Source: a virus
Virus genome (UHGV): UHGV-0390358
Direction: 5' to 3' (one strand)
DNA: 40,847 nt
The position numbers and the translations under genes are program-made. The notes beneath the pieces were generated by a model. It searched no databases. It was not told the DNA's origin and was given only the letters and a program-made list of their open reading frames with translations. Positions within the stretch are counted from its first letter, which is position 1. The number at the start of each line of letters is the position of its first letter. Shown piece after piece: positions 7,537-40,847 of the stretch.

Positions 7537-7941
7537 ATGTCTGCTCAAGTAACAAGTGAGCAATTAAATCAGTTGCTTAGTTTTGGTTCTCTTGCTGCGG
7601 TTATTGCAGGTGTCCCTCCGGAGGTTGCTTTAGGGGCTTTGGCTGGGGCGGTAATTTTTGTTACCTCTGCAGTAGAGTACCCCATCCGTCGCCGGGTGCT
7701 CCTTTCGATGCTCAGCTTTCTTTGTGGCCTTCTCTTTTACAAACCAGCAGCATCAATTCTTATCGGCATAGCCAGCCTGATCCCTACCATCACGCAGGAC
7801 TCTTTTGAAAAAGGGATTGTTTTCTCTGCAGGCGCATTCGTGTCAGCAATTGTCGCTGTGCGTATTGGTATATGGCTCTATCACCGTTCCGATAATCCAC
7901 GCGAGTTAATTCCGGGGAGAAAAGACGATGGTAACGCATGA
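7537..7941 (+). CDS. Putative holin-like membrane protein
   Basis: AGGAG ribosome-binding site; 134 aa with several predicted TM segments; first gene of a cassette followed by endolysin and spanins. Confidence 0.45.
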   Translation: MSAQVTSEQLNQLLSFGSLAAVIAGVPPEVALGALAGAVIFVTSAVEYPIRRRVLLSMLSFLCGLLFYKPAASILIGIASLIPTITQDSFEKGIVFSAGAFVSAIVAVRIGIWLYHRSDNPRELIPGRKDDGNA

Positions 7942-8236
7942 GTTTTTTTTGCTTATCACCAATGCAGTTATTTGCACTGGCATAGCAATTCGCGTTGTCA
8001 CATTCCGGCGTAACGGCTCTCAACATCGAAGGTGGGGAGGATGGCTTGCTTATTTCCTGATTGTTGCTGCGGCCAGTATTCCTGTTCGAGTCGCCTATGC
8101 AATCTGGTTACGTACGCCAATGGCTGTGGATTTATCTGAGGTCATTATCAACGCTGTCATGCTGGCTGCGGTTATTAAAACGCGCGGTAACGTCGTTCAA
8201 ATTTTTAAAGTATCGAGGTCTAAACATGGAGATTAA
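7928..8236 (+). CDS. Putative holin/antiholin-like small membrane protein
   Basis: 102 aa hydrophobic protein; start overlaps previous gene; immediately upstream of endolysin. Confidence 0.4.
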
Positions 8237-8855
8237 ACAATTCCAGCGAGCTGCTGGTACCAGCGAGGCACTGGCCGCACGCTGGTTCTCGCATATAACT
8301 TCTGCGATGAAAGAGTTTGGTATCAGCAAAGCAGAAGATCAGGCAATGTTTATTGCTCAAGTCGGGCATGAGTCTGGGGGCTTCACCAGGTTGCAGGAGA
8401 ATTTCAACTACAGTGTCAGCGGACTGGCTAACTTCGTTCGGGCTGGGCGTCTCACTCAGGGGCAGGCTAATGCACTGGGGCGCCGTGCTGGTGAACCACC
8501 ATTGCCACTTGAGCGCCAGCGCGCGATCGCAAATCTGGTATACAGCAAACGCATGGGGAACAATGCCCCTGGTGATGGCTGGAATTACCGAGGGCGCGGA
8601 CTTATCCAGATTACCGGTTTGAATAACTATCGTGATTGCGGAAACGGTCTGAAGGTTGACCTGCTGGAGAGCCCTGAACTGCTGGCGCAGGACGAATATG
8701 CGGCTCGTAGCGCGGCGTGGTTCTTCGCCAGCAAAGGATGCATGAAGTATACCGGCGATATTGCACGTGTAACTCTGATTATCAATGGTGGCAGAAACGG
8801 TATCGACGACCGGCGTGCGCGGTACATCACAGCAAGTAAGGTACTGGCGGTATGA
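8226..8855 (+). CDS. Endolysin, glycoside hydrolase family 19 (chitinase-like) type
   Basis: ATG at 8226 (ribosome-binding site GAGG); motifs [12 protein letters not shown] and [12 protein letters not shown] typical of GH19 phage endolysins. Confidence 0.8.
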
Positions 8856-9349
8856 TCTGGGCATTTGTAAAAGCATACCGTAAACAGTTACTTATCGTGG
8901 CGATGCTTGCTGTTCTGGTCATATCAGGAGTTGTTGCCTGGAATGTGCACGGCATCCGTCAGTACGATGCCGGGTATGCGCAGGCGAAGGAAGATCAGAA
9001 ACAGGCTGATGATAAGTTAAGGTCACAGCGTGAGCAGGAGAAAACACAAATTGAACGTGAAGCACAATCCCGTATCGATGCGGCGCGTGCTGATGCTGAG
9101 TATGCTAATTCCGCTGCTGACAGCATGCGCGCCGAGCTTGACAAAACCAGGCGGCTCGCCGAACACTATACCGGATCTTTCCCCCCTGGCACGCCAGCCA
9201 GCAAGGTCATCGGTGTGCTCGCCGACATGCTTGAAGAAAGCAACCGAGTTTACAACGCAACAGCAGCTGAGGCTGAAAAGTATCGTATCGCAGGGGAATT
9301 CTGCGAGCAGCAATACGATTCACTGAAGAAGCAAAAATCGTGGCACTGA
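8852..9349 (+). CDS. Rz-like inner-membrane spanin
   Basis: N-terminal TM helix followed by charged coiled-coil region; directly after endolysin. Confidence 0.65.
9078..9326 (+). CDS. Rz1-like outer-membrane lipoprotein spanin, embedded in the +1 frame of the Rz-like gene
   Basis: Embedded ORF with lipobox LLTAC, Pro/Ser-rich; start codon choice uncertain. Confidence 0.4.
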   Translation: MRRVLMLSMLIPLLTACAPSLTKPGGSPNTIPDLSPLARQPARSSVCSPTCLKKATEFTTQQQLRLKSIVSQGNSASSNTIH

Positions 9350-9354: not shown

Positions 9355-9616
9355 GGTGACGGTATATGAAACGGTACGGGAAAAGTTGAGGCTTGGAAAA
9401 GTGTTATCACTCAATTGGTTATGGTTGTCGTAAATAATCGAGTGGGAATGATTAACAGCTAACTCATAGCAACTCATTCCTATTCAGATACCAATTTAAC
9501 CCTCTGTTTTTACAGAGGGTTTTTGTTTTTATGTATTCATTTCTATTCACTCTACACCATATTTTTCGTCGGTACAGGTGACGGTATTACCTTAAAGGTA
9601 TACTCTCATACCGTCA
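9355..9616. repeat. Candidate attP arm region: GGTGACGGTAT repeats upstream of the integrase gene
   Basis: GGTGACGGTAT at 9355-9365 and 9577-9587 (direct), inverted copy ATACCGTCA at 9608-9616; core site not identified. Confidence 0.3.
9499..9530 (+). terminator. Rho-independent terminator downstream of lysis cassette
   Basis: ACCCTCTG-ttttta-CAGAGGGT followed by TTTTTGTTTTT. Confidence 0.6.
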
Positions 9617-9643: not shown

Positions 9644-10894
9644 GTGCTTACCGATACAAAATTAAAAAACCTCAAGCCGCAGGACAAACTGTACAAGGTC
9701 TCCGATCGTGACGGGCTGTATGTAGCTGTGCTTACGTCAGGCACGGTCTCGTTTCGCTATGACTACCGTATCAACGGTCGCCGCGAAACACTGGTAATCG
9801 GGCAGTATGGGCGTGACGGTATCAGCCTGGCAGAAGCGCGAGAAGAACTGATTGCTGCAAAGAAGCTGCTTAAAGCAGGCCAGTCACCGGCTGCGGCTAA
9901 ACGTGACGGTATCAAAAAGATTCGTGGTGCCGAGACGTTTGCGGTACATACCGACAGTTATATGAAACACGTCATCCTGGCTGACAGTACCCGCGCAATG
10001 AAACAGGCGGTGATCGACCGTGACATACTTCCGGTTCTTGGCAATAAAATGATGGCTGAAATTACCACATCGATGGTTCGTGATTTGTGTGACCGGATTG
10101 TCGAACGCGGTGGCCGGGCAACAGCAGTACAGGCCAGGGAGATCATCAGCAGCGTATACCGTCACGCCAATGACCGTGGTCATGGTTTGTTTAATCCTGC
10201 GGCTGACATTAAACCTTCGTCTATCGCCATATTTAAACCACGAGAGCGAACACTGACACCAGAAGAAATTGGCCTGTTCTTCCGCACGCTGGATGCCATT
10301 GGTGCTATGGGCACTATGAAAATGGCTTTAAAGCTGGTGCTTATCACTATGGTTCGTAAAGGCGAATTCACCAATGCAACGTGGGATGAAATAGATTTTA
10401 AAAAATGGACATGGACAATTCCTTCAGACCGCATGAAGGGAAGCCGGGCGCACGTTATTTACCTGCCTAAACAGGCACAGGATATATTGGTTGGGTTGCA
10501 GATGTGCGCTGGTGGAAGTGAATATCTGGTTCCTGGTCGTTACAATTTCCGGAAGCCATTATCTAATGCCGCGCTGAACTCTCTGATCGACAGAACGGTG
10601 AAAATAATAAATGAAGATGGTGAGCATATTCAGGACTTCACCGTACACGATATGCGCCGTACAGCCAGTACGTTGTTGCATGAGGCTGGTTATCCTTCAG
10701 ACTGGATTGAAAAGGCTCTGGCACATGAGCAGAAAGGTGTGCGCGCCGTATATAACAAAGCGGAATACGCCAGACAGCGCGCCTACATGTTGCAGCAGTG
10801 GGCCGATATGATTGATTCCTGGATTAACGGGGAGCATACGGATCTGATTCCGTTCTCCCCGTCGAAGTTTGAGAAGTGGATGGCGGGGGAATAA
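9644..10894 (+). CDS. int: Tyrosine site-specific integrase
   Basis: GTG start at 9644; N-terminal LTDTKLKNLKP...YRINGRRETLVIG arm-binding-type domain; C-terminal catalytic region HDMRRTASTLL...AVYNKAEY. Confidence 0.85.
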   Translation: MLTDTKLKNLKPQDKLYKVSDRDGLYVAVLTSGTVSFRYDYRINGRRETLVIGQYGRDGISLAEAREELIAAKKLLKAGQSPAAAKRDGIKKIRGAETFAVHTDSYMKHVILADSTRAMKQAVIDRDILPVLGNKMMAEITTSMVRDLCDRIVERGGRATAVQAREIISSVYRHANDRGHGLFNPAADIKPSSIAIFKPRERTLTPEEIGLFFRTLDAIGAMGTMKMALKLVLITMVRKGEFTNATWDEIDFKKWTWTIPSDRMKGSRAHVIYLPKQAQDILVGLQMCAGGSEYLVPGRYNFRKPLSNAALNSLIDRTVKIINEDGEHIQDFTVHDMRRTASTLLHEAGYPSDWIEKALAHEQKGVRAVYNKAEYARQRAYMLQQWADMIDSWINGEHTDLIPFSPSKFEKWMAGE

Positions 10895-10897: not shown

Positions 10898-11092
10898 TTA
10901 ATTATTCTGCTGATTTTCTTCCATCTCGGCTTCTGCTGCCAGTGATTCAATTTTGTTTTCGAATATTGCTGACAGTGTTGCAAATTCAGCATCAGTGACA
11001 GCGGGAATTGGAACAAACCTGATCCCGCTGTGTGCAAGCATGTTTGCAGTTTCAAGGCATTTTCTTAAATCTGCTGGTGATGCCCTGTTCAT
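10898..11092 (-). CDS. Small acidic protein (64 aa), translationally coupled to the methyltransferase gene; alternatively a frameshifted methyltransferase C-terminus
   Basis: ATG at 11092 overlaps methyltransferase stop (ATGA); protein-like sequence ...IRFVPIPAVTDAEFATLSAIFENKIESLAAEAEMEENQQNN. Confidence 0.3.
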   Translation of the reverse strand: MNRASPADLRKCLETANMLAHSGIRFVPIPAVTDAEFATLSAIFENKIESLAAEAEMEENQQNN

Positions 11093-11739
11093 GCAGCACG
11101 CTCCCGCCCCTGGTTGTCTGTTGGTGACAGCGGAGCATTGCTGAATGCATTTGTTAATCCGCCAATATCCAACGCGTATCCAGGGTGTAGTTGCACTGCC
11201 GGGTCTTCGCACTGATTACCCCAAACATCGAAGCCATGAGACGTCTGGCGGGCGAACAGTTCAATGCGAGAAACATCGCCTAATAATTGCACAAGTTTTT
11301 CACGAACGATATCTGGCTTTCTTGAATGCTCAAGCCGCGGTGCGGTAAATGACTGAACGATCCCTGCATTAATGCGCGTAGGTAGTTTTCCCTTTACCGC
11401 AAACAGGCAATCTTCACTATTGGCGCGAGTCATGTGTCCCATACCCATAACCAGTTTATCTGGTTGTCGACTACCACATTTTATCCACGTGAAGCCCTTC
11501 ATGGTCATCAGACGGAATCCCCAGGCTTCAACAACTTTTAGCGCTTCGAGTGGTTGTGTTGGCACCCACCACATGGCCAACAGACAGTTTTCATCGGCCA
11601 AATCCCACACAGGAAGGCGGCAGATATCCATCACACTCATAACCGGATATTTAAAACTGGCACCGCGATTACCATCTGCGGCTTTGTCCCGGTATACCCA
11701 GGGTGGATCTGCATAGATTAGTGTGTATTTCTTAGTCAT
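11089..11739 (-). CDS. DNA N6-adenine methyltransferase, MT-A70 family (orphan methylase)
   Basis: Motif IYADPPW near N-terminus; ribosome-binding site GGGGTGG. Confidence 0.8.
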   Translation of the reverse strand: MTKKYTLIYADPPWVYRDKAADGNRGASFKYPVMSVMDICRLPVWDLADENCLLAMWWVPTQPLEALKVVEAWGFRLMTMKGFTWIKCGSRQPDKLVMGMGHMTRANSEDCLFAVKGKLPTRINAGIVQSFTAPRLEHSRKPDIVREKLVQLLGDVSRIELFARQTSHGFDVWGNQCEDPAVQLHPGYALDIGGLTNAFSNAPLSPTDNQGRERAA

Positions 11740-12031
11740 AAACCACCCCGCAACATCCTATACCGCTATAGTCTCCACGGCGAAGGCCGTTACCTTTTGT
11801 GATACATTGGTCCCTGCGAACCGCGATCCTTGCACGCTCAACATCACCAGAAGCAACATCCATACACTGAAGCCAAAGGTGAGCGGCAATGCGGAACTGC
11901 CCTTTTTTCTCTCTTTCAATCGCGCGTTTTTCGATCTCTATCGCCGCAGGAGTAACGGCGACAATCTTTGACGGACTGCGCATTGAAACCTTATTCATGT
12001 GATATTTTTCAAGTCGGCTTAACTTTCTCAC
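11732..12031 (-). CDS. Hypothetical protein
   Basis: ORF between AlpA-like and methyltransferase genes; GTG start with AGAGGG upstream; no recognisable motif. Confidence 0.3.
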   Translation of the reverse strand: MRKLSRLEKYHMNKVSMRSPSKIVAVTPAAIEIEKRAIEREKKGQFRIAAHLWLQCMDVASGDVERARIAVRRDQCITKGNGLRRGDYSGIGCCGVVYD

Positions 12032-12140
12032 TTAATCCAACCCTCTCTGAAAATTAATGCCAGCAGATAAAGCCATGCTGAAACAGAGGCCAGGAATAAG
12101 TACCATCCTGACCATTTGATCCAGTGCCTTAGCAGCGCAC

Positions 12141-12389
12141 TCATGCAGCGTTGCTCACGGGACGATATACACGTTGCTGAACAGGAGGTTTTTTACCCTG
12201 GAACTCTGCCGGGCTTGCTGCCTGACGTTCATCAAGCCAACGCTCAACTTCGTCACGGTTCCATGCGCAGCGTTTGTCAGTGATATACCAGCGTTTAGGA
12301 AATTCCCCTGCGCGCTCCATACGGTCGATAGTGCTCCATGACAGTGGCACCACCGCCAGGAGTTCCTTCTTACCTAATGCACCTTTCAT
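12141..12389 (-). CDS. AlpA-family DNA-binding protein (excisionase / transcriptional regulator-like)
   Basis: 82 aa; ...LSWSTIDRMERAGEFPKRWYITDKRCAWNRDEVERWLDE resembles the AlpA family HTH. Confidence 0.55.
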   Translation of the reverse strand: MKGALGKKELLAVVPLSWSTIDRMERAGEFPKRWYITDKRCAWNRDEVERWLDERQAASPAEFQGKKPPVQQRVYRPVSNAA

Positions 12390-12438
12390 AAATACCTCTC
12401 TTGGTTGCAGTGCGGCGCGTGTGGCACCGCGGTGGTGG

Positions 12439-13461
12439 TTACTCGAATTCTGGACGCATATCGTTAAGCGTCATCATGAATTTTTGGTGATATTCATCAC
12501 CGAGCTTTTCAGCCATGGTGTTAATCTCATTTTCAGCGCTCTTGAACATCGTTTTTGCATCTTCAGCAGATGGATCCAGGCTATTAAGTATCGCGATGAT
12601 ATATTCTCGAGCTTCTTCTCGTTCTGAATCTGAAATTGGCGACAGGTGTTGACGCTCATCGTCAACTACGGAATATTCACCAGTGATAACAGCTGCGTTA
12701 TCTTGGCTAAGTCCAGCTTCAGCGCGCTCATCCATAACAACAGCCTTCTGCATTTCAATAGAAACAGGAAGATATTTGAATAGTCGGCGAATTACTGTTT
12801 TTTTAGCCATCTCATCGAAGTGATCAACCCATGGGCCACTGCTACCGGCTTTGCTCAGTGCACGAACTTTCTCAATGTCTGCCCGGCTCATAACTTCAAA
12901 TTGGACTCCGCCATCTTTCAGTCGTGCAACGGCGTAAACGTGCGTTAATTCTCCGCGGTCACCTGTTTCGCAAGGTAAATGCTCGAGCGTTTCTTCCAGG
13001 CCGTATGAGTAGCTGAATTTGTCGTTTGTATGTACGGTACGAGCCGAGATACTCAGGATCTGCCCAGAGCGGCGGGCAAGGTCAATCATTCCGCGATAGC
13101 CGATAATCAGCTGTGCTTCTGTAGATACGGTTTCCCATCTTCCATTTACTTTCTGGCGTTTGTCGAACGGTATCAGGTAAGCGTGTCCAAGAGCTCCGCC
13201 TGGTTCAAGACCCAATTGGGCACATTGCATAATTGCCCCCAGGAAGCTGGCTTGGTCGCATGATGCAAGTTTTGGAACCTTTCGGATCTCTGTGGTTGCT
13301 ATGCGCGCCAGACGGTCTGCTGTCATGTGCTTTGGAAGTGCCAAAGCCATCTGAGCTTTAATTTTTGGGTCTGCCAGAAGTCCGGCCAGAGTTGTTGGTT
13401 TCTCATTATGATGTGCAACTTGGTTACCGGCAGCCGCTGCCTTAAGTGCATTGATAGACAT
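12439..13461 (-). CDS. recT: RecT-family single-strand annealing recombinase
   Basis: Strong similarity by eye to Rac RecT (ADRLARIATTEIRKVP...GYRGMIDLARRSGQI...HVYAVARLKDGG.QFEVM...KTVIRRLFKYLPVSIE); AAGGAG ribosome-binding site. Confidence 0.85.
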   Translation of the reverse strand: MSINALKAAAAGNQVAHHNEKPTTLAGLLADPKIKAQMALALPKHMTADRLARIATTEIRKVPKLASCDQASFLGAIMQCAQLGLEPGGALGHAYLIPFDKRQKVNGRWETVSTEAQLIIGYRGMIDLARRSGQILSISARTVHTNDKFSYSYGLEETLEHLPCETGDRGELTHVYAVARLKDGGVQFEVMSRADIEKVRALSKAGSSGPWVDHFDEMAKKTVIRRLFKYLPVSIEMQKAVVMDERAEAGLSQDNAAVITGEYSVVDDERQHLSPISDSEREEAREYIIAILNSLDPSAEDAKTMFKSAENEINTMAEKLGDEYHQKFMMTLNDMRPEFE

Positions 13462-13470
13462 TTTTTCTCC

Positions 13471-14666: not shown

Positions 14667-14668
14667 TA

Positions 14669-15559: not shown

Positions 15560-15614
15560 TTTCTGGAAAATCGCCTCATATATGAATCAGTAGATGATTC
15601 AATTTAAAGCAATA

Positions 15615-15677: not shown

Positions 15678-15713
15678 ATATTTATTATCTGAAATAAATA
15701 TCAGGCAATAGCT

Positions 15714-18335: not shown

Positions 18336-18396
18336 ATCGACGATCTTTTTAGTTATCAATGTAATCAATAAGTTATGTGGATAAGCGAGGGTAAAG

Positions 18397-19490: not shown

Positions 19491-19491
19491 T

Positions 19492-29800: not shown

Positions 29801-29812
29801 GCAGGAGTGTAT

Positions 29813-33676: not shown

Positions 33677-34221
33677 TGTGCGATCCGGTTATTGCTGGTG
33701 GCGCAATGCTCGCCATGAGTGGCATTCAGGCATACACCCAGTACCAACAGGGAAAGTATGCCTCGAAGGTTGCAGAAGCGAACGCAGATATAGCCACAGC
33801 TCAGGCAAATGATGCAATAAACAGAGGTAACGCTGAAGCTGAGCAACGGCGCAGAGAGACCCGACAGCGGCTTGGTACACAGGCGGCGACAATGGGGGCT
33901 ACCGGCGCTGATTTATCTACAGGTAACGCGCTGGATATATTTGGCGACACTGCCCAGTTTGGCGCTCTTGATTCTCTGACGACGGTGAATAACGCGCAAC
34001 GCGAGGCTTACGGTTATCAGGTTCAGGCTGCCAACTATAAAGCAGAAGCCAGTTCAGCCCGTAAACAGGGGAATGTGGGAGCAGCAACAACATTGCTCAC
34101 TGCGCCTCTGAAGGCATACGGTGCGTACCAGATGTTTGGTGGGACGTGGAGTCCGTTTACTCAAAGCACCCCTGCGCCAATCGGGGCAGCAGCAGGAACC
34201 AGATTACCCGGAGGATTATAA
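33676..34221 (+). CDS. Internal virion protein (gp14-like position)
   Basis: 181 aa, Ala/Gln-rich. Confidence 0.4.
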   Translation: MCDPVIAGGAMLAMSGIQAYTQYQQGKYASKVAEANADIATAQANDAINRGNAEAEQRRRETRQRLGTQAATMGATGADLSTGNALDIFGDTAQFGALDSLTTVNNAQREAYGYQVQAANYKAEASSARKQGNVGAATTLLTAPLKAYGAYQMFGGTWSPFTQSTPAPIGAAAGTRLPGGL

Positions 34222-36734
34222 TGCCAGTCGTACCAACAGTATCCGGCCGTCAGGTTCAGAGCCGTGGAGTTCAGTCAGCAGGCTTGCAGACGTTTTCTCA
34301 GCCAGGTATTGGTGATGCTTTTGTTCGGGCAGGGACAGAGGCAATTGATGTTTTTGGTCAGGCAAAACAGCGTGCCAATATCGCTCTGGCTCAGGAGGCA
34401 TCTCTTAACCTCAGTCAGATAAGCAGTGATCTGCTGAATAATCCTGAAACAGGATTGCTTAACCTGAAAGGGAAAAATGCTATTGGAAAAGGTCAGGAGT
34501 ATACGCAGCAGTTTGATGCTCAGGTCGAACAACTGGCTATGTCGCTGCCGGATGAACAGGCTCGTAATGCTTTCATGCAGCAGGCGCAGCAGCAGCGCAT
34601 TCAGTTCACTACGCAGGCAGGGCGGCACGAGATAGGGCAAATAAATGCCTACGAAGAAGGCCAGTTTCAGGCTACGCTGCTGAACAATGGTAAAAATGCC
34701 GCAGCATTGTATGGCGACAACGCCGCATACGTATTGGCTAATAAGCAAACTTTCCAGCAAATTGAGGATTACGGCATTGCACATGGCTGGAGTGACGAGC
34801 AAATCCAGGCCAAGAAAATCGAGTTTAAAGAGAAGGTTGCTGATGCTGCATTGTCCCAGTGGTCGGCAAACAATGCGACCGCATTCATCCAAAGTAATGG
34901 CGAGTTAAGTGATACTGCTGCTGGAGCTCGCCGTGCTGTAGCAGATAGTGACTCTTCCGAGCGTGCCCGTGGCATACGCAACAATAACCCAGGAAATCTC
35001 GAATACAGCAAAACTAATCCGTGGGTAGGCCAGACCGGTGATGATGGTCGATTTGCTAAATTCGAAACACCTGAACACGGGATTCGTGCATTAGGGCGGA
35101 ACCTGATGTCGTATCAGAGGCAGGGTATTGATACCGTCAGCGAGATAATTAATCGCTGGGCACCGCCTACTGATAAAAATGACACTATGTCGTATATCAA
35201 AGCAGTGTGCGAACAACTTGGCGTTTCTGCTGATGAGCCTCTCGATGCATCTAATCCTGATACCCTGAAGGCGCTTTGTGCAGCCATTATCCATCATGAG
35301 AACGGTAGCCAGCCATACAGTGATCAGCAGTTAACTGCTGGTGTCAGTGCAGCACTTGGTTTATCAACAATTCCAACCAACACCAAACGCTATACCGGTA
35401 ATGCAGCATTCGATGCGGCATCTCCTGAGGCGCAGGCAAGTTTTATGCGACAGGCGGATCAACTGCGTCGGCAGCAGCAGGCTGAATATAAAACGATGAT
35501 TGACAGCAAGGTTCGCGATGCGACAGCTGCGTATATGCGGGGCGTTGAATTTCCTAACCCACCTGGTGAGGCTGATTTTATTGCAGCTTATGGAGTCAGA
35601 GAAGGAAACCTGCGATATACCGAGTTCAGAAATACGCAAATCGCCGGACAGTATATAGGCTCTTTCCGCAACATGCCGACAAGCAGCATTACAGCATATG
35701 TTGAGCAATTACGCCCGGATACTGGTGAGACAGGGGAGGGTTATGCGGCACGAGCCGCTCTTTATGACAACGTTGTGTCGGCTGCAAGTCAGGTGATAAA
35801 GCAGCGACAGGCTGATCCTGTACAGTTCTCTCTTGCCGCCGGACAGGCAAAGCCTATCGACATGAGCAATAAGGATAACTTTGGACAGAGCGTTGCCTTG
35901 CGTGCTGCTCAGGTCAGTGACCTTGCTAAGTCATATGGCACTCCACTGACGTTCTTTTCCAAAGACGAGGCCAATCAGATCGGTGTTTTCTTTCGTGATG
36001 CTCCAGTTTCCCAACAGGCAGCATATCTCGATACCATCAGGCAGAGCACTGGTGGTGGGCAGGTGTATATGTCAGCACTACAGCAGATCAGTGCCAACGC
36101 TCCATCTGCTGCCGTTGCCGGGATACTGATGGACAAGCCTGGTGGTATTTTGGCAGAAAAAAACTGGTTTAATCCGGATGTTTCCGTGTCTCCTGAAACC
36201 GCTGCGCAGACAATTCTTACTGGCGCGGCGGCTCGTAAAGGTACTGATGATGCGAAAGGTATTCCGATGCCTAAAGATGCTGATCTTCGCCTTGAGTTTT
36301 CTGACATGGTGAAGGATGCATTTGCTGGTGATGCTCAGGGGGCATCAATGGCATACGAGATCGCAAAGGACTATTACGCTGGTGTGATGGCGAAAAAAGG
36401 CGTGATATCAGGCGAAATTGACACTGATATCTGGAAGCAGGCTGTTAACGTAGCTACAGGTGGCGTGCATGACTATAACGGAATGGGGAATGTCCTTTTG
36501 CCGTGGGGAATGTCTGCAGAGCAATTCGATAAGCAGGTTAATCAGGCTTGGAATGAACAAGTGGTCGGCACCGGGATAAAAACACCGCCTGGTCAGTATG
36601 GTTTGCAAAGTTACGGCGATAGTCAGTACCTGGTGAAACTTGGTACTGGTTATCTGCTGAAAGATGATGGTTCTCCTGTTGTTCTTGATCTGACACAGAA
36701 GCGTCAGAGATTCTCCGGAGATATTCCGCAATGA
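34221..36734 (+). CDS. Large internal (ejected) virion protein with conserved central domain; possible virion-associated peptidoglycan hydrolase
   Basis: ATG at 34221 with GGAGGA ribosome-binding site, overlapping previous stop; conserved-looking block RGIRNNNPGNLEYSKTNPWVGQ... that I cannot assign by eye. Confidence 0.5.
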   Translation: MPVVPTVSGRQVQSRGVQSAGLQTFSQPGIGDAFVRAGTEAIDVFGQAKQRANIALAQEASLNLSQISSDLLNNPETGLLNLKGKNAIGKGQEYTQQFDAQVEQLAMSLPDEQARNAFMQQAQQQRIQFTTQAGRHEIGQINAYEEGQFQATLLNNGKNAAALYGDNAAYVLANKQTFQQIEDYGIAHGWSDEQIQAKKIEFKEKVADAALSQWSANNATAFIQSNGELSDTAAGARRAVADSDSSERARGIRNNNPGNLEYSKTNPWVGQTGDDGRFAKFETPEHGIRALGRNLMSYQRQGIDTVSEIINRWAPPTDKNDTMSYIKAVCEQLGVSADEPLDASNPDTLKALCAAIIHHENGSQPYSDQQLTAGVSAALGLSTIPTNTKRYTGNAAFDAASPEAQASFMRQADQLRRQQQAEYKTMIDSKVRDATAAYMRGVEFPNPPGEADFIAAYGVREGNLRYTEFRNTQIAGQYIGSFRNMPTSSITAYVEQLRPDTGETGEGYAARAALYDNVVSAASQVIKQRQADPVQFSLAAGQAKPIDMSNKDNFGQSVALRAAQVSDLAKSYGTPLTFFSKDEANQIGVFFRDAPVSQQAAYLDTIRQSTGGGQVYMSALQQISANAPSAAVAGILMDKPGGILAEKNWFNPDVSVSPETAAQTILTGAAARKGTDDAKGIPMPKDADLRLEFSDMVKDAFAGDAQGASMAYEIAKDYYAGVMAKKGVISGEIDTDIWKQAVNVATGGVHDYNGMGNVLLPWGMSAEQFDKQVNQAWNEQVVGTGIKTPPGQYGLQSYGDSQYLVKLGTGYLLKDDGSPVVLDLTQKRQRFSGDIPQ

Positions 36735-38533
36735 GTTACTTTGGCCTTAATCCAGTAAACCAGAATCAGCAACTTGACGAAGCAGCATCAAATCCAGCGG
36801 GCTTTAACAGCGATGTTGGTTTTTTCGACAATGCTGTAGGAGCGGCATTGTCTGGTTTGTACTCCGGGCTGGTGGCAAAGCCAGATCAGTTGCTATGGGC
36901 AGGGATGGATAAAATCGTATCCCCGATTGCTCAGTTTATTAACGAAAACACCTCGCTCAATGATACTTCAGTTTCATACATTGCCGAGCAGAGAAAACTA
37001 GCAGAGCAGCAGGTTAAGCGGCTGACGCCTGATGCCGCGACAACCGGAACCGCCGGGCAGGTTCTTTATGGGTTGTTCGATATGGGCGGGCAGGCTGTTG
37101 TCGGTACAACGCTCGGTGGTCCTGTCGGAGGTGCAGCGGCGGTAACTTCGCTACAGGGTTTTTCTGAGTTTGAACGGTTGACAGCACAGGGTGTTGATTT
37201 CAGGACGGCGCAGGAAGCGGGATTAGTGCAGGGCATTACTGCTGGTGCCGGAACACTGATCCCTATGAGCCTCGGGTTACGTGCTGGTGGTGCGCTGGCG
37301 GAAGGTGTGGCGGCTCAGCTTGCGCGGACGGGTGAGAGTTCAGTGCGACGCGCCGCAGCAACAGCAGTACGTGCAACGCCAGATATTGCCTATGCCGCAG
37401 GTACAAATATTGCGTTCGGTATGGCACAGCGTGGGCTTACTGCAAAAACACTTCGTGATGGTGGCTATAGCGAAATGGCTAACCAATATGATGTGTTGGA
37501 TCGACAGGCAATTGCTATTGATGCTGTTCTTGGGGTGGCGTTTGGTGGTGTCGGCAGATTTATTAACTCTCGCGGCGAGTCTACAAACGCACCAAATTTT
37601 TCACCAGTTGATATCGATGCTGCACTGGCGGCGAATGCCGCTCATCATGCTGAAATTGATATTGCGCCCGGCGTGCCGATCAACGTGCTTTCGCGCAATT
37701 CTCACATTCAGGCTCTGCGAAAAGCTATGTCTGATGTTAGCCAGGGGAGACCTGTAGACGTTGCCAGCATTGTTGAGTCTGCATCTTTCAGTGAAATTCC
37801 TGGGCGCAAGAGTCTGCTGTCTCAGGCAGTTAATGAGGCTCTGTCATCTGTAGATGATGGAGTAACGGCGCGCGCTATAGAAAATCGGTTGCTTGAAGAA
37901 CAGGCCGCGCAGCTTTTGCCGCGTGGAGATAGACAGGTTTACCAGTCTGAAATCGCTAATAGCCAACGAATTATTGAAAATCTCACTGAACAGCGTGCAC
38001 AAATTCTTGCAGAAGAGCCAACCGGTAGCGGTAAAGCTTTGTCTCGTGCTCGATCAGATAAACAGGCCAGACTTCGCGATATTGATCAACGAATCCGGCA
38101 GGCACAAGAACGCCTGGAATTTTCCCGTAACGCGTTGGCACCGCACGAGCCTGGCGGTCAGCTTTTTGAAGCTCGAGCAGAACTGGCTCGGAGACAGCAG
38201 GCAGAAAGTGAACTTAATGCTCAGGCTGTTTCATTCTATAAAACAGCAGAGGTCAGGACGCCAGACGAAGTAGCTCCTTTTGAGCCTGATAAAATATTGC
38301 AACAGGCAGAACAAAAAATGCTGTCAGATAAGGCAGGAGATATTGATCTGCGCATAGCTGAAGACTCGCTGCTTGAATCACCTGACATGATAATCACCGT
38401 GCTGGATGATGATGGTAATCCACAATCGCGCAGTGCGCGTGAAGTACTGGATGAAGCGAACAGGGAAAGTGAGCAGGCAATACAGGATTCCAGCCTGTTT
38501 GATGTCGCTGTGGCGTGTTTCTTGAGAGGTTAA
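36731..38533 (+). CDS. Internal virion protein
   Basis: 600 aa, Gly/Ala-rich, overlapping start. Confidence 0.45.
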   Translation: MSYFGLNPVNQNQQLDEAASNPAGFNSDVGFFDNAVGAALSGLYSGLVAKPDQLLWAGMDKIVSPIAQFINENTSLNDTSVSYIAEQRKLAEQQVKRLTPDAATTGTAGQVLYGLFDMGGQAVVGTTLGGPVGGAAAVTSLQGFSEFERLTAQGVDFRTAQEAGLVQGITAGAGTLIPMSLGLRAGGALAEGVAAQLARTGESSVRRAAATAVRATPDIAYAAGTNIAFGMAQRGLTAKTLRDGGYSEMANQYDVLDRQAIAIDAVLGVAFGGVGRFINSRGESTNAPNFSPVDIDAALAANAAHHAEIDIAPGVPINVLSRNSHIQALRKAMSDVSQGRPVDVASIVESASFSEIPGRKSLLSQAVNEALSSVDDGVTARAIENRLLEEQAAQLLPRGDRQVYQSEIANSQRIIENLTEQRAQILAEEPTGSGKALSRARSDKQARLRDIDQRIRQAQERLEFSRNALAPHEPGGQLFEARAELARRQQAESELNAQAVSFYKTAEVRTPDEVAPFEPDKILQQAEQKMLSDKAGDIDLRIAEDSLLESPDMIITVLDDDGNPQSRSAREVLDEANRESEQAIQDSSLFDVAVACFLRG

Positions 38534-38538
38534 ATTAA

Positions 38539-40847
38539 ATGAGACAGGAATGTATACAAGCGGTCCAGCAGGCGGCGCAGCGCACTTTAACGGCGCGAGA
38601 AATACAGAACATTGAAGACCGCATTTATCGAAATATGCGCTCCATTGCTCGTGATGACCCGATCTCGTGGCGACAACTTTCCGAATCAGAGCGGCTATAT
38701 CGAGCAGCACAATTGGCATCTGAAGAATTACAGCGAGAAGCGGCATTAAAGAAACGTCGTGTGGCTCTCACTATAGCCGCGCGTCAGAGATTGGATAAAT
38801 TTATCAATAGCTATCAAGGGGCTGATGGGAAACTTGGTGCTCTTAACCGTACTATAGCTTTTAATGCAGACGGTAAATCTAATTTCCTCTCTGTTGAATC
38901 CAGAACAAAAGCCACCCGTGATTATGCATTGAGTCAATTGCAGGAGGCATTCGAAGCAGTTGATCCTCGCTTTTTTGGTCTGTTTGAAGATGAAGCGGGC
39001 GTACGTGACCTGGTATATGAAATGCGGGGGCAAAATACTGGCAATGCTAAAGCAAGGAAAGGTGCTAAGGCGTGGAGAGAAGTTACAGAGCTGCTGCGCC
39101 GCCGGTTTAATGATGCTGGTGGGGACATTGGCTATCTCGAAAACTGGGGGATCCCTCAACATCATTCTATGGAAAAGGTTGGGGCGGTATCAAAGGATAA
39201 GTGGGTTAGCGATGTTATAGGTAAGCTGGATCGCAAATATTATACCCGAGCCGATGGACAACTGATGAACGATGCCGAGTTGTCTGAATTTCTTGGAGAG
39301 GCTTATAACACGATCGCTACTGGTGGGCTGAATAAGCTTACTGATACCGGAATGCGAATTTCCGGCGCACGTGCTAACCGTGGTAATGCATCACGACAGA
39401 TACATTTCAAAGATGCAGATTCCTATCTGCAATATCAGCAACTTTATGGCGATCGCTCTCTATGGGAAATCATGGTCGGTCACCTGGAAGGTATCAGTAA
39501 AGATATTGCACTGGTGGAAACATATGGCCCAAACCCCGATCATGTTTTCCGCTCTCTTCTTGATCAGGTGAAGGCAGAAACGGCAACAGCTAACCCGAGT
39601 AAAACCGGTAAAGTCGAGCGGCTGGCGAACAACACAGAGAATCTGTACAACTTTATTTCCGGAAAGACACAGCCTGTAGCGAATCCGCACATCGCGCGAT
39701 GGTCTGACAATATCCGCAACTGGCTGGTTGCCAGCAGACTCGGATCCGCGTTGCTGTCATCGTTCTCTGATCTTGGAACCATGTATCTGTCTGCGAAGGT
39801 TACCAACCTTCCAATGAACCAGTTATTCCGCAACCAGCTTGAAGCTATGGACCCAACGAACCGTACAGAACTTGCGCGGGCGCGCCGCGCTGGTCTGGCG
39901 ATGGAATCTCTACTTGGCAGCGTTAACCGCTGGGCGATGGATAATATGGGGCCGTCAGTGTCTCGTTGGGCGGCAACGGCGGTAATGCGTGCCAGTGGGC
40001 TTACAGCATGGTCAGATGCGCACAAGCGCGCCTATGGCGTAACCATGATGGGAAGCCTGGGAGAAGTAGTGTCACGGACACCAGACCTTCGTAGCCTCGA
40101 TGACTCTGATTTTCGTATCCTGAAAAGCAAAGGGATTACTGACACAGACTGGAGCGTATGGAAGCTGGCGAAACAGGAGGACTGGGGGAACGGTAATAAT
40201 ACGATGCTGACACCGGAAAGCATTATGCGTATCCCTGATTCAGCAGTTAAACATCTTGGTGAGCCTGAACGCGTGAAATTTGAGGCAATGCGTAAACTGC
40301 TCGGTGCCGTAACTGAAGAAGTTGATATGGCTGTTATTACACCGGGAGCACGTGAGCAACTGATAACCGGTTCTGGTATTCAGCGTGGAACATGGAAAGG
40401 TGAATTAACGAGAAGTGTTTTCCTGTTTAAATCGTTCCCTATCTCGGTTGTTATGCGTCACTGGTCACGCGCTATGGGTATGCCGTCTGCTGGTGGGCGT
40501 GCGGCATATATTGCGACGTTTATTGCCAGTACGACCATTCTTGGCGCTTTGTCGCAGCAACTTAACGACCTTGCGTCTGGTCGTAATCCTCGAGAGATGA
40601 CAGGAGAAGATGCCGCAAAATTCTGGCTTGGTGCTTTACTGAAAGGTGGTGGTCTTGGCCTTTACGGTGACTTTTTATTGTCAGATCACACTAGGTACGG
40701 AAGCGGCGCGCTGGCGTCGATGCTTGGCCCGGTAGCTGGTCTGGTTGATGACGTAGTGAAGATTGCTCAGGGCATACCGTTAAATGCTGTGGAAGGGAAG
40801 AGTGAGCAGACTGGTGGTGATCTGGTGAAGCTGGGGAAAGGTTTGAT
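38539..40847 (+). CDS. Large internal virion / DNA-injection protein (gp16-like), 3'-truncated by window end
   Basis: ATG at 38539; frame appears open to the window end (inferred partly from absence of long alternative-frame ORFs in the track). Confidence 0.5.
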   Translation, partial: MRQECIQAVQQAAQRTLTAREIQNIEDRIYRNMRSIARDDPISWRQLSESERLYRAAQLASEELQREAALKKRRVALTIAARQRLDKFINSYQGADGKLGALNRTIAFNADGKSNFLSVESRTKATRDYALSQLQEAFEAVDPRFFGLFEDEAGVRDLVYEMRGQNTGNAKARKGAKAWREVTELLRRRFNDAGGDIGYLENWGIPQHHSMEKVGAVSKDKWVSDVIGKLDRKYYTRADGQLMNDAELSEFLGEAYNTIATGGLNKLTDTGMRISGARANRGNASRQIHFKDADSYLQYQQLYGDRSLWEIMVGHLEGISKDIALVETYGPNPDHVFRSLLDQVKAETATANPSKTGKVERLANNTENLYNFISGKTQPVANPHIARWSDNIRNWLVASRLGSALLSSFSDLGTMYLSAKVTNLPMNQLFRNQLEAMDPTNRTELARARRAGLAMESLLGSVNRWAMDNMGPSVSRWAATAVMRASGLTAWSDAHKRAYGVTMMGSLGEVVSRTPDLRSLDDSDFRILKSKGITDTDWSVWKLAKQEDWGNGNNTMLTPESIMRIPDSAVKHLGEPERVKFEAMRKLLGAVTEEVDMAVITPGAREQLITGSGIQRGTWKGELTRSVFLFKSFPISVVMRHWSRAMGMPSAGGRAAYIATFIASTTILGALSQQLNDLASGRNPREMTGEDAAKFWLGALLKGGGLGLYGDFLLSDHTRYGSGALASMLGPVAGLVDDVVKIAQGIPLNAVEGKSEQTGGDLVKLGKGL

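What the first reader, a model, noticed from the sequence alone, without database searches (positions are those of the whole stretch)
7537..40847. Mosaic architecture: lambda-like early region joined to a T7-like structural module, with lysis genes next to the integrase
RecT, P-like and repressor/Cro genes are lambdoid, while the portal (Gln/Met-rich C-terminus), gp11/gp12-like tail and the train of internal virion proteins are T7-like, and the tailspike is an endosialidase. Lysis genes sit between tailspike and integrase rather than beside the terminase. I do not recognise this as a specific named phage.
Basis: inference. Interest (0 to 1): 0.45.

Follow-up and report, generated by a model that had tools for sequence, protein, structure and literature searches.

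The report
Known epsilon15-like K1 coliphage genome
The window is the complete, circularly permuted genome of an epsilon15/phiV10-type temperate short-tailed phage (genus Uetakevirus) of capsule-K1 E. coli. Its "mosaic" layout is the standard, long-described layout of that genus, and the sequence is about 99.9% identical to a prophage already present in a public E. coli genome.

Summary
The layout is not a new mosaic. The 40,847-bp window is a whole, circularly permuted Uetakevirus genome.

- **Identity:** it differs at only 22 alignment columns from a prophage at the 3' end of guaA in E. coli Es_ST80_L1_NDM_10_2017. It is 98% identical over 84% of its length to the characterised K1 phage vB_EcoP_ZX5.
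- **Gene order:** it matches phiV10 and epsilon15 gene for gene, including tailspike, lysis cassette, attP and int.
- **Protein matches:** 41 of 51 proteins hit epsilon15, none hit T7, and four hit lambda.
- **T7 link:** it is real but ancient. It covers the portal and gp14 Pfam families, the gp11 adaptor fold at 12-14% identity, and published profile matches. The terminase, protease and capsid shell are not T7-type.
- **Lambda link:** the early region is lambdoid in layout only. It has no N or Q, no O, and no S24 repressor domain.

This is ordinary and already known, so interest is low.

The parts
38539..40847 (+). Last ejection/internal virion protein gene (824 aa; homologue of epsilon15 gp17 and phiV10 p20; IVP-D class). 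It runs off the window end and continues at 1-166.
   Evidence: Reading frame is continuous across the junction. 99% aa identity to ZX5 and 28% to epsilon15 gp17. phrog_684 virion structural protein. Hardies 2016 assigns epsilon15 gp17 to the T7 gp16 (IVP-D) family.
1..166 (+). 3' end of the wrapped ejection-protein gene. It shows that the window is a circular permutation.
386..766 (+). Small lipoprotein gene (lipobox LLVGC), function unknown, after the last ejection gene.
   Evidence: Sequence. phrog_3716, unknown function. 100% aa identity to ZX5.
1825..2511 (-). BRO-N antirepressor.
   Evidence: PF02498, E 8e-20. RefSeq start. 81% aa identity to ZX5 ORF4, whose overexpression pushed ZX5 towards lysis.
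2560..2741 (-). C4 antisense RNA (2560-2646) and isrK-like sRNA (2665-2741) directly upstream of the antirepressor. Together they form an immI-like second immunity region.
   Evidence: Rfam RF01695 79.5 bits and RF01394 74.7 bits, both above gathering score.
4111..7230 (+). Chimeric tailspike. About the first 232 aa are the Uetakevirus particle-anchor domain. The remainder is a K1 polysialic-acid endosialidase with a C-terminal chaperone domain.
   Evidence: Pfam End_N_terminal, End_beta_propel, End_beta_barrel, End_tail_spike and Peptidase_S74. aa 1-165 are 72% identical to epsilon15 gp20. nt 4809-7201 are 99.5% identical to CUS-3 siaK1. 100% aa identity to ZX5 ORF7.
7537..9349 (+). Lysis cassette: membrane/holin-type protein (7537-7941), holin (7928-8236), GH19 endolysin (8226-8855), Rz i-spanin (8852-9349) and embedded Rz1 o-spanin (about 9078-9326, lipobox LLTAC).
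   Evidence: Pfam PF16931, PF05449, PF00182 and PF10721. Embedded ORF. Same order as in epsilon15 and phiV10.
9437..9453 (+). attP core ATCGAGTGGGAATGATT. It re-creates the last codons (IEWE-stop) of guaA.
   Evidence: The 17-bp overlap is duplicated at both ends of the prophage in NZ_CP031215. One mismatch to the published core attgagtgggaatgatt. It lies 190 bp upstream of int, as in ZX5.
9498..9521 (+). Strong intrinsic-terminator-like hairpin between the att core and int.
   Evidence: 10-bp stem followed by a T-run. phiV10 annotates a terminator at the same place.
9644..10894 (+). Tyrosine integrase (P4-type, with arm-binding domain).
   Evidence: PF13356, PF22022 and PF00589. 100% aa identity to ZX5 ORF12 and 88% to epsilon15.
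10898..14681 (-). Leftward early operon: DUF1382 (lambda orf63-like), MT-A70 adenine methylase, PerC-like activator, AlpA-type excisionase/regulator (12141-12389), RecT (12439-13461), YqaJ-type exonuclease (13471-14370) and a hypothetical gene.
   Evidence: Pfam. RecT and the exonuclease are 92% and 91% aa identical to epsilon15 and absent from ZX5.
14975..15944 (.). Immunity switch: two-HTH repressor without an S24 domain (14975-15559, -) and a divergent Cro-like gene (15714-15944, +).
   Evidence: PF01381 only, no Peptidase_S24. phrog_35. 99% aa identity to the experimentally tested ZX5 ORF21.
16286..17870 (+). Replication genes: DnaT-like initiator (16286-17122) and lambda-P-like helicase loader (17094-17870).
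   Evidence: PF17948 and PF06992. 39% aa identity to lambda P.
17988..21275 (+). Accessory block (DUF1064, Eae-like, Ead/Ea22, a 392-aa DUF550/551-type fusion, ASCH, and a regulator like epsilon15 gp49). This is the only part that shares nucleotide identity with lambdoid and Stx phages.
21315..23455 (+). Terminase small subunit (21315-21989) and large subunit (21986-23455). Not T7-type.
   Evidence: PF03592. phrog_2. 93% aa identity to epsilon15 TerL. No match to the T7 terminase families.
23459..24607 (-). Opposite-strand moron unit: tRNA-Arg(UCU) (24531-24607) and a 33%-GC gene for a 282-292 aa membrane and coiled-coil protein of unknown function (23459-24337).
25256..26935 (+). Portal (podovirus / T7 gp8 type).
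   Evidence: PF12236, E 2.7e-187. T7 gp8 is in the same family. PDB 8ck0_A, E 1.5e-178.
26932..30136 (+). Capsid module: Bbp19-like protein, protease/scaffold (27231-27926), major capsid protein (27941-28927), Bbp16-type cement (28979-29416), gp9-like protein, and gp10-type staple (29813-30136).
   Evidence: PF25181, PF20911, PF21190 and PF21628. phrog_458 protease. PDB 3j4u, 8cjz and 3j40. The major capsid protein is 63% aa identical to BPP-1 and 43% to epsilon15.
30136..33212 (+). Tail hub: adaptor (30136-30741; T7 gp11 fold) and nozzle (30741-33212; equivalent to epsilon15 gp12 / T7 gp12).
   Evidence: PDB 8ck1_E and 8ck1_A. AF2 model with pLDDT 86. Foldseek hit to T7 gp11, E 7e-6, TM 0.56-0.59. 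85% and 88% aa identity to epsilon15 gp11 and gp12. Hardies 2016.
33212..38533 (+). Ejection (internal virion) proteins: IVP-A-like (33212-33676), T7-gp14-family IVP-B (33676-34221), an 837-aa protein with a lysozyme-like domain at aa 249-398 (34221-36734), and a 600-aa protein (36731-38533).
   Evidence: PF24072, E 2.5e-7. phrog_308 and phrog_992. PDB 9vvp_L and 7q47_A. Collinear with epsilon15 gp13-gp16.

Best explanation
**What it is.** The window is one complete, circularly permuted genome of a temperate podophage of the genus Uetakevirus (the epsilon15/phiV10 group). It is a K1-capsule-specific variant, essentially the same phage as a guaA-integrated prophage of E. coli ST80 and a close relative of vB_EcoP_ZX5.

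**How it works.** The steps below are shown only by homology or literature, except where marked as inference.
- **Adsorption:** six trimeric tailspikes attach to the tail hub through a genus-specific N-terminal anchor. Their endosialidase body cleaves the K1 polysialic-acid capsule.
- **DNA delivery:** the dodecameric portal, adaptor and hexameric nozzle form the short tail. The internal proteins (homologues of epsilon15 gp13-gp17, one with a peptidoglycan-hydrolase domain) are ejected to build a trans-envelope channel, as in T7 and epsilon15.
- **Lysis-lysogeny decision:** a two-HTH repressor facing a Cro-like gene sets the decision. The repressor has no LexA-like cleavage domain. Induction therefore goes through a BRO-N antirepressor, which appears to be held in check by a C4-type antisense RNA (inference).
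- **Integration:** the integrase recombines the 17-bp attP core with the 3' end of guaA and rebuilds the guaA stop codon.
- **Replication and recombination:** replication uses a DnaT-like initiator and a lambda-P-like helicase loader. Recombination uses RecT with a YqaJ-type exonuclease.
- **Transcription and lysis:** nearly all genes from cro through replication, terminase, head, tail, tailspike and lysis lie on one strand as a single array of about 34 kb. The lysis cassette is therefore the last late function and abuts attP and int on the circular map. This explains 'lysis next to integrase'.
- **Packaging:** probably headful (inference from the terminase type and from the circular ZX5 record).
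For: **Near-identical sequences exist.**
- Full-length alignment to the prophage in NZ_CP031215.1, between guaA and yfgI, shows only 22 differing columns. The 17-bp att overlap is duplicated at both prophage ends.
- Megablast gives 98% identity to ZX5, phiV10, TL-2011b, PAS61, phiv142-3 and the O157 typing phages 9 and 10.
- Identity multiplied by coverage is 81.9% for ZX5, 69.1% for phiV10, 37.4% for epsilon15, 0% for T7 and 0.9% for lambda.

**Gene order and content match the genus.**
- Gene order is identical to ZX5, epsilon15 and phiV10, including tailspike, holins, endolysin, Rz/Rz1, attP, int, the methylase, PerC, AlpA, RecT and the repressor.
- 41 of 51 proteins hit epsilon15 collinearly.
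- Family and structure matches: PF20911 (epsilon15 gp7 capsid), PF21628 (gp10 staple), PF21190 (Bbp16), PF12236 (portal), PF24072 (gp14), the endosialidase domains, and the lysis and integrase domains.
- The adaptor model has the T7 gp11 fold.

**Experimental support comes from ZX5** (PMC9782041).
- Its host is K1 and it integrates at the guaA 3' end.
- Its repressor is 99% aa identical to the window's, its integrase 100% and its antirepressor 81%. All three were tested by overexpression.

**The wrap is real.** The last gene reads through from the window end to the window start.
Against: Nothing contradicts the assignment. Four caveats apply.
- Against the type species epsilon15, nucleotide similarity is only about 37%, and the capsid-shell proteins are only 36-43% aa identical.
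- About 16-18% of the window (recombination genes, accessory genes and morons) is not shared with ZX5. By the ICTV 95% rule it would be a different species from any isolated phage.
- Virion morphology, host range and inducibility of this exact sequence were not, and cannot be, tested here.
- The C4-RNA control of the antirepressor and the headful packaging mode are inferences.
Confidence: 0.97

Rival explanations
1. The window would be a novel, unnamed mosaic made by recent recombination between a lambdoid phage (early genes) and a T7-like phage (structural genes).
For: - The portal and the gp14-like protein share Pfam families with T7.
- The adaptor has the gp11 fold.
- Homologues of lambda P, orf63 and ea22 are present.
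- Short 90-95% nucleotide patches are shared with Stx and lambdoid phages at 18.5-21 kb.
Against: - tblastn and tblastx find no matches to T7.
- Identity to T7 gp11 is only 12-14% even at fold level.
- T7 hallmark genes gave no hit, and the terminase, scaffold, capsid, adaptor, nozzle and gp13 Pfam families of T7 are not matched.
- The same combined architecture already exists in epsilon15, phiV10, ZX5 and, for the structural half, BPP-1. The join is therefore ancient and defines a named genus.
- A near-identical prophage is already public.
Confidence: 0.02
2. The contig is an assembly artefact that stitches two different phages or prophages together.
For: GC content varies locally between 0.43 and 0.52 and there are opposite-strand inserts.
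Against: - The whole window is collinear at about 99.9% with one contiguous prophage in a closed chromosome, bounded by a 17-bp att duplication.
- It is also collinear with the independently sequenced phage ZX5.
- The GC dips coincide with known moron positions.
Confidence: 0.01
3. The sequence is a defective or cryptic prophage remnant, not a functional phage.
For: - In the RefSeq copy, the adaptor gene is annotated as frameshifted.
- Several ea22/DUF550/DUF551 genes there are annotated as partial.
Against: - In the window the adaptor gene is intact. It has one extra G at 30228 relative to the RefSeq copy, and at 201 aa it is 100% identical to a cluster of 1,275 member sequences.
- All the head, tail, ejection, lysis, terminase, integrase and replication genes examined are full length, at 97-100% aa identity to those of the viable phage ZX5.
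- The window is in the excised, circular order across attP.
Confidence: 0.05

Closest known systems
guaA-integrated prophage of E. coli Es_ST80_L1_NDM_10_2017 (NZ_CP031215.1, about 5005883-5046750)
   Same: The sequence is identical apart from 22 alignment columns over the full 40.8 kb. All genes, the att core and the endosialidase tailspike match.
   Different: - The window is in excised, circular order.
- It carries one more AGAGGA repeat unit in the DnaT-like gene.
- It lacks a 13-nt insertion at 952.
- It has an intact adaptor gene at 30228, where the RefSeq copy has a frameshift.
- It has one SNP at 9390.
Escherichia phage vB_EcoP_ZX5 (MW722083; Uetakevirus; host O87:H52:K1; PMC9782041)
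   Same: - 98% nt identity over about 84% of the window.
- The tailspike and integrase are 100% aa identical and the repressor 99%.
- The structural and lysis modules, the attP position and the integration site are the same.
   Different: - The RecT/exonuclease pair differs: the window's is the epsilon15 type.
- The accessory genes at 18.5-21 kb, the moron between terL and the portal, the genes around the antirepressor, and Rz (52% aa) also differ.
- Identity multiplied by coverage is about 82%, below the 95% species line.
Escherichia phage phiV10 (NC_007804) and Salmonella phage epsilon15 (NC_004775), the founding members of Uetakevirus
   Same: - Gene order is the same all round the genome, including the lysis cassette between tailspike and attP-int.
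- Both integrate at guaA.
- The portal, adaptor, nozzle and terminase are 81-93% aa identical to those of epsilon15.
   Different: - The receptor-binding part of the tailspike differs: O157- or O-antigen-specific there, K1 endosialidase here.
- The window has no O-antigen-modifying genes (oac in phiV10, the polymerase and inhibitor in epsilon15).
- The capsid-shell proteins are only 36-43% aa identical to those of epsilon15.
Enterobacteria phage CUS-3 (Lederbergvirus, K1 prophage) endosialidase siaK1
   Same: The receptor-destroying body and chaperone domain are 99.5% nt identical, at window 4809-7201.
   Different: The N-terminal particle-binding domain is P22-type in CUS-3 and Uetakevirus-type here. 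The rest of the genome is unrelated.
Bordetella phage BPP-1 (Rauchvirus)
   Same: - The order of structural genes is the same.
- The major capsid protein is 63% aa identical, which is closer than epsilon15's.
- Bbp16 cement, a Bbp19-like protein and the portal (44% aa) are shared.
   Different: Replication, immunity and tail-fibre genes are entirely different, BPP-1 carries a DGR, and the host is different. Nucleotide similarity is about 1%.
Coliphage T7 (Autographiviridae)
   Same: - The order portal, capsid, adaptor, nozzle, internal virion proteins, fibre is the same.
- The portal and gp14 Pfam families, the gp11 adaptor fold and the Gln/Met-rich portal tail are shared.
- Published profile links exist for the nozzle and for IVP-A, IVP-B and IVP-D.
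   Different: - There is no detectable pairwise sequence similarity.
- No T7 gene, including the RNA polymerase and replisome genes, gives a match.
- The terminase and capsid families differ.
- The window has a protease in place of the gp9 scaffold.
- The window phage is temperate.
Coliphage lambda and the lambdoid phages
   Same: - The divergent repressor/cro switch is flanked by a leftward recombination operon and a rightward replication operon.
- Homologues of P (39% aa), orf63/DUF1382 and ea22 are present.
- The Rz/Rz1 arrangement is the same.
   Different: - The window has no N or Q.
- It has a DnaT-like initiator in place of O.
- It has RecT in place of Bet.
- Its repressor lacks the S24 domain and works with an antirepressor.
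- Its lysis genes follow the tail genes where lambda's precede the terminase.
- Its virion is a podovirus.

Membership tests
Genus Uetakevirus (epsilon15/phiV10-like temperate podophages) | Whole-genome nucleotide similarity of at least about 70% to a classified member (ICTV genus criterion). | tested here: met
   Identity multiplied by coverage, normalised to the window, is 81.9% to ZX5, which GenBank classifies as Uetakevirus. It is 69.1% to phiV10 and 37.4% to epsilon15. This is a blastn approximation, not VIRIDIC.
Genus Uetakevirus (epsilon15/phiV10-like temperate podophages) | Conserved gene order: terS, terL, portal, protease, MCP, staple, adaptor, nozzle, gp13-17 ejection proteins, tailspike, lysis, attP, int, leftward recombination genes, repressor/cro, replication. 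| tested here: met
   Gene-by-gene collinearity with epsilon15, phiV10 and ZX5. 41 of 51 proteins hit epsilon15.
Genus Uetakevirus (epsilon15/phiV10-like temperate podophages) | Capsid proteins of the epsilon15 type (gp7-family MCP plus gp10 staple). | tested here: met
   PF20911, E 3.8e-149, and PF21628, E 1.2e-51. PDB 3j40_A, E 1e-84.
Genus Uetakevirus (epsilon15/phiV10-like temperate podophages) | Integration at the 3' end of guaA through the 17-bp core next to a P4-type integrase. | tested here: met
   The prophage copy lies between guaA and yfgI with the core duplicated at both ends. The core has one mismatch to the published sequence and lies 190 bp upstream of int.
Genus Uetakevirus (epsilon15/phiV10-like temperate podophages) | Podovirus virion with six tailspikes and an internal core. 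| not testable with these tools
   Inferred only from homology to structural proteins of epsilon15, ZX5 and Carin-1.
T7-like phages (Autographiviridae) | Phage-encoded single-subunit RNA polymerase and a T7-type replisome. | tested here: not met
   tblastx of the whole window against T7 gives 0 HSPs at E <= 1e-3. No window protein hits T7 by tblastn.
T7-like phages (Autographiviridae) | T7-family structural proteins: portal PF12236, capsid PF21703, scaffold PF05396, adaptor PF17212, nozzle PF25675, gp13 PF11090, gp14 PF24072, terminase PF22530. | tested here: not met
   Only two of the eight families are shared, the portal and gp14. The adaptor matches gp11 only at fold level, at 12-14% identity. 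Thin-profile hhalign was not significant.
Lambdoid phages | N/Q antitermination, O/P replication, a CI repressor with an S24 autocleavage domain, and a lysis cassette upstream of the terminase. | tested here: not met
   - P is the only homologue from this set.
- The repressor has HTH domains only.
- The initiator is DnaT-like.
- The lysis genes lie after the tailspike.
- No hit to lambda N, Q or O was found.
Endosialidase (K1-specific) tailspikes (K1F, K1E, CUS-3 type) | N-terminal extension, beta-propeller with inserted beta-barrel, stalk domain and a C-terminal intramolecular chaperone (Peptidase_S74). | tested here: met
   All five Pfam domains are above threshold. 99.5% nt identity to CUS-3 siaK1, whose activity has experimental evidence in its annotation. 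Enzyme activity of this copy was not tested.

The most novel reading that the evidence does not exclude
The opposite-strand unit between the terminase and portal genes (23459-24607) may be a lysogen-expressed moron with a new function.

- **What it contains:** a tRNA-Arg(UCU) followed by a 33%-GC gene for a membrane-anchored coiled-coil protein.
- **Why it stands out:** the protein has no Pfam, NCBIfam or PADLOC family. Homologues appear in only three isolated phages.
- **Proposed function:** a new superinfection-exclusion or abortive-infection activity, sitting in a variable hot-spot of Uetakevirus genomes.

A more modest alternative is that the window is a new species-level lineage of the genus, at about 82% similarity to the nearest isolated phage.
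Probability: 0.15. Interest if true: 0.3.

Novelty: already known. Interest (0 to 1): 0.08.

Why it matters
It matters little as a discovery. The architecture has been textbook for epsilon15-like phages since the epsilon15 and phiV10 genome papers, and this exact sequence is already in RefSeq as a prophage.

Its practical value is as an example. It shows a temperate, guaA-integrating podophage that acquired a K1 endosialidase from the pool shared with P22-like prophages such as CUS-3. That bears on capsule-typing from prophage tailspikes, on engineering receptor-binding domains, and on the ecology of K1 (neonatal-meningitis and ExPEC) E. coli.

It also makes a general point. The labels "lambda-like" and "T7-like" describe deep module ancestry here and do not indicate a recent chimera.

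Tried and rejected
- **Published attP core:** an exact search for ATTGAGTGGGAATGATT found nothing. Reading the sequence showed the window core differs at one base, ATCGAG....
- **T7 similarity, pairwise:** tblastn and tblastx against T7 gave no hits.
- **T7 similarity, thin profiles:** hhalign used three-sequence profiles (window, epsilon15, BPP-1) against single T7 and lambda proteins, and nothing was significant. The best results were the portal (P 0.002), IVP-A (P 0.0012) and the nozzle (P 0.055). The remote T7 link therefore rests on Pfam, on the adaptor fold search and on Hardies et al. 2016.
- **Unannotated structural proteins:** Pfam and NCBIfam returned nothing for TerL, the nozzle, the adaptor, IVP-A or the three large ejection proteins.
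- **Morons:** PADLOC returned only weak coiled-coil noise for the 292-aa protein and nothing for the others.
- **PDB codes in the literature:** searches for 8CK1, 8CJZ and 8CK0 found no paper. The Foldseek description later identified 8ck1 as phage Carin-1.
- **My first BRO-N gene model:** the ORF 1825-2664 was rejected because it overlaps the Rfam C4 RNA. The RefSeq start at 2511 is used.
- **Assembly artefact:** rejected.

Full report
**What the window is.** A megablast of the finding's span and of the rest of the window against about 50,000 phage records shows 96-98% identity to a tight group of E. coli podophages. These are vB_EcoP_ZX5, phiV10, TL-2011b, PAS61, phiv142-3, HEMP4 and the O157 typing phages 9 and 10. 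Identity to Salmonella and Enterobacter relatives is 75-82%. GenBank classifies ZX5, phiV10 and epsilon15 in the genus Uetakevirus.

Against complete E. coli genomes, the stretch 9437-25000 matched a chromosome of strain Es_ST80_L1_NDM_10_2017 at 100%. Fetching that region showed a prophage lying between guaA and yfgI. Two blastn segments, 9437-40847 and 1-9453, cover the entire window at 99.98% and 99.85% identity. They are contiguous in the chromosome and overlap by 17 bp.

A global alignment shows only 22 differing columns:
- one base in the att core;
- one AGAGGA repeat unit (also seen);
- one G at 30228;
- a 13-nt insertion;
- one SNP.

The window is therefore the excised, circular form of that prophage, cut arbitrarily inside a gene. 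The 824-aa ejection-protein gene starting at 38539 reads straight through the window end into 1-166. ZX5 aligns across the same junction.

**Checking the observation.**
- Pfam finds RecT, a YqaJ-type exonuclease, an MT-A70 methylase, PerC, AlpA, an HTH_3 repressor, a DnaT domain, lambda replication protein P, DUF1064 and Ead/Ea22 in the early region.
- Pfam finds terminase small subunit, a PF12236 portal, the epsilon15-type capsid protein PF20911, Bbp16 cement, the gp10 staple, a Bbp19-like protein and a T7_gp14-family protein in the late region.
- The tailspike carries five endosialidase domains. Two holin families, a GH19 endolysin, DUF2514 (Rz) and a tyrosine integrase with an arm-binding domain follow it.
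- An Rz1 lipoprotein ORF is embedded in Rz.
- The portal C-terminus is indeed Gln/Met-rich and resembles the C-terminus of T7 gp8.

The one coordinate problem is that the tailspike (4111-7230) lies outside the stated span. This follows from the circular permutation.

**Is the architecture a new mosaic?** No. The annotated genomes of epsilon15, phiV10 and ZX5 have the same order all the way round:
- terS, terL, an opposite-strand moron, then portal, protease and MCP;
- gp8/gp9/gp10, adaptor, nozzle and gp13-gp17, followed by morons and the tailspike;
- membrane protein, holin, endolysin and Rz/Rz1, then attP and int;
- methylase, PerC, AlpA, the recombination genes, repressor and cro, then the DnaT-like gene, (P) and the ea genes.

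By tblastn, 41 of my 51 gene products hit epsilon15 in collinear order, at 28-93% aa identity. None hits T7. Only four hit lambda: P at 39%, orf63/DUF1382 at 50%, ea22 at 60%, and a weak int match. tblastx confirms 0 HSPs to T7 and three loci in lambda. Identity multiplied by coverage is 81.9% to ZX5, 69.1% to phiV10, 37.4% to epsilon15, 0% to T7 and 0.9% to lambda.

The att core (9437-9453, ATCGAGTGGGAATGATT) differs by one base from the published attP of phiV10, epsilon15 and ZX5. It lies 190 bp upstream of int, exactly as reported for ZX5.

**How far "T7-like" is true.** T7 proteins run through Pfam fall in eight structural families. The window shares only two of them, the portal family PF12236 and the gp14 family PF24072. 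Its terminase, capsid, adaptor, nozzle and gp13-position proteins do not reach the T7 families. It also has a protease-annotated gene (phrog_458) where T7 has the gp9 scaffold.

Three-sequence profiles compared with T7 proteins by hhalign were not significant. I then tested the adaptor by structure:
- an AlphaFold2 model from a 41-sequence alignment reached pLDDT 86 and pTM 0.77;
- its best solved match is the connector of phage Carin-1 (8ck1_E), followed by Legionella phage LME-1;
- a block of T7-like gp11 adaptors and tail tubular protein A structures follows at E 7e-6 to 1e-4, probability 1.00, TM 0.54-0.59 and 12-14% identity.

The nozzle is 88% identical to epsilon15 gp12 and matches the Carin-1 "Tail Nozzle" at E 1e-216. 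Hardies et al. (PMC4819975) reported strong profile-profile matches between the epsilon15 and T7 nozzle families. [quoted passage not shown] They also report that the epsilon15 terminase and capsid group with siphovirus lineages.

The 837-aa ejection protein carries a lysozyme-like domain (PDB 7q47_A, E 2.7e-17). This is functionally analogous to the transglycosylase domain of T7 gp16. The tail and ejection apparatus is thus an ancient relative of T7's, and the head and packaging genes are not.

**How far "lambda-like" is true.** The layout is lambdoid: a divergent repressor/cro pair, a leftward recombination operon and a rightward replication operon. Most components differ, however.
- The repressor has two HTH regions and no S24 cleavage domain.
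- The initiator is DnaT-like, not O.
- No match to lambda N, Q, O or cII was found.
- Nucleotide-level sharing with several hundred Stx-converting and lambdoid phages is confined to window ~18.5-21 kb. That stretch holds the ea22, eaA, DUF550 and DUF551 accessory genes, and the shared patches cover 1-10% of a 6.4-kb query.

**Why the lysis genes sit next to the integrase.** Nearly all genes from cro (15714) round to Rz (9349) are on the + strand, and cumulative GC skew rises across this stretch. The lysis cassette is simply the distal end of this long rightward array. attP and int follow it on the circle, separated by a strong terminator-like hairpin at 9498-9521. phiV10 annotates a terminator at the same place. 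In the prophage, the lysis genes and int are at opposite ends. This is a property of the genus.

**Mechanism.** From homology, the phage adsorbs by cleaving the K1 polysialic-acid capsule. Its tailspike is a chimera:
- aa 1-165 are 72% identical to the epsilon15 gp20 anchor;
- nt 4809-7201 are 99.5% identical to the CUS-3 endosialidase, beginning 521 nt into that gene, which is after its P22-type head-binding domain.

Exchange of receptor-binding domains behind a genus-conserved anchor is documented for Uetakevirus and Lederbergvirus (PMC10408124). ZX5 carries the identical tailspike, and its host is O87:H52:K1. In ZX5, overexpression showed that the repressor blocks lytic transcription and the antirepressor promotes lysis. 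The window's repressor, integrase and antirepressor are 99%, 100% and 81% aa identical to the ZX5 proteins.

Rfam adds a C4 antisense RNA (2560-2646) and an isrK-like RNA (2665-2741) directly upstream of the antirepressor gene. From what is known of P1/P7 immI and of Gifsy-1 IsrK (my own knowledge), I infer antisense control of antirepressor expression. This step is inferred, not shown.

**Internal mosaicism within the genus.** The real mosaicism here is small-scale.
- The RecT/exonuclease pair is epsilon15-type (92% and 91% aa) and is replaced in ZX5.
- The capsid-shell genes are closer to Bordetella phage BPP-1 than to epsilon15. The major capsid protein is 63% against 43% identical and the cement protein 43% against 36%. 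The flanking portal, protease, adaptor and nozzle are 73-88% identical to epsilon15. The phiV10 annotation already points to BcepC6B and BPP-1 for these genes.
- The slot between terL and the portal holds a 33%-GC gene of unknown function with a tRNA-Arg(UCU) on the opposite strand.

**Verdict.** The thing itself is an ordinary, already sequenced member of a well-described phage genus. Novelty is "already known" and interest is low.

Noticed in passing
window 2560-2741 (-), upstream of 1825-2511 (-): Rfam finds a C4 antisense RNA (79.5 bits) and an isrK-like Hfq-binding sRNA (74.7 bits) in tandem, directly upstream of the BRO-N antirepressor gene. Together they look like an immI-like second immunity region, as in P1/P7 or Gifsy-1. 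The ZX5 paper does not mention it in the passages read.
   Followed up: partly
window 23459-24607 (-): An opposite-strand moron unit lies between terL and the portal. It holds tRNA-Arg(UCU) and a 33%-GC gene for a 282-292 aa protein with hydrophobic N-terminal segments and a long coiled coil. The protein has no Pfam, NCBIfam or PADLOC family (only phrog_4780, unknown function). Homologues appear in only three isolated phages, one of them at the same slot in the Uetakevirus EC.W1-9.
   Followed up: partly
window 27941-30136: The capsid-shell sub-module is swapped relative to the type phage. The MCP is 63% aa identical to Bordetella phage BPP-1 but 43% to epsilon15, and the cement protein is 43% against 36%. 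The neighbouring portal, protease, adaptor and nozzle are 73-88% identical to epsilon15.
   Followed up: partly
window 4111-7230, junction near 4809: The tailspike is a clean chimera. A Uetakevirus anchor (72% aa to epsilon15 gp20 over aa 1-165) is joined to an endosialidase body that is 99.5% nt identical to that of the P22-like K1 prophage CUS-3. The match starts just after CUS-3's own head-binding domain.
   Followed up: yes
window 30228; L002 23577-24181: The RefSeq prophage copy lacks one G here, so its adaptor gene is annotated as 'frameshifted'. The window copy is intact and 100% identical to a protein cluster of 1,275 member sequences. The RefSeq frameshift is probably an assembly error or a strain-specific inactivation.
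   Followed up: partly
window 16675-16701: A hexanucleotide repeat, AGAGGA x4.5, lies inside the DnaT-like replication gene. The window has one more unit than the ST80 prophage, an in-frame length polymorphism.
   Followed up: yes
window 2906-3634 (+): A 242-aa protein has an N-terminal transmembrane segment and C-terminal zinc-ribbon-like repeats. The repeats hit endonuclease VII and Lar-like PHROGs only weakly. It is absent from ZX5 and epsilon15 and its function is unknown.
   Followed up: no
window 386-766 (+): A small lipoprotein (lipobox LLVGC) is encoded just after the last ejection-protein gene, with a terminator-like hairpin at 775-792. It is 100% aa identical in ZX5 and could be a superinfection-exclusion candidate. 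Its function is unknown.
   Followed up: no
window 12439-14370 (-): The RecT and YqaJ-exonuclease pair is 92% and 91% aa identical to Salmonella phage epsilon15 and has no tblastn hit in ZX5. ZX5 annotates a different RecT and a RecE-like exonuclease at that position, and phiV10 a RecE-RecT fusion. This is module exchange within the genus.
   Followed up: yes
window 19492-20670 (+): A single 392-aa ORF spans what RefSeq annotates, in the near-identical prophage, as several partial DUF551 and DUF550 pseudogene fragments. It matches several different PHROGs piecewise. It looks like a patchwork of lambdoid 'ea'-region gene segments.
   Followed up: no
window 9437-9453 against L002 attL: The phage core has C at its third position (ATCGAG...), while the guaA-side attL copy in the lysogen has T, the published core. 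The codon stays Ile. This places the strand-exchange point to the right of that base.
   Followed up: partly
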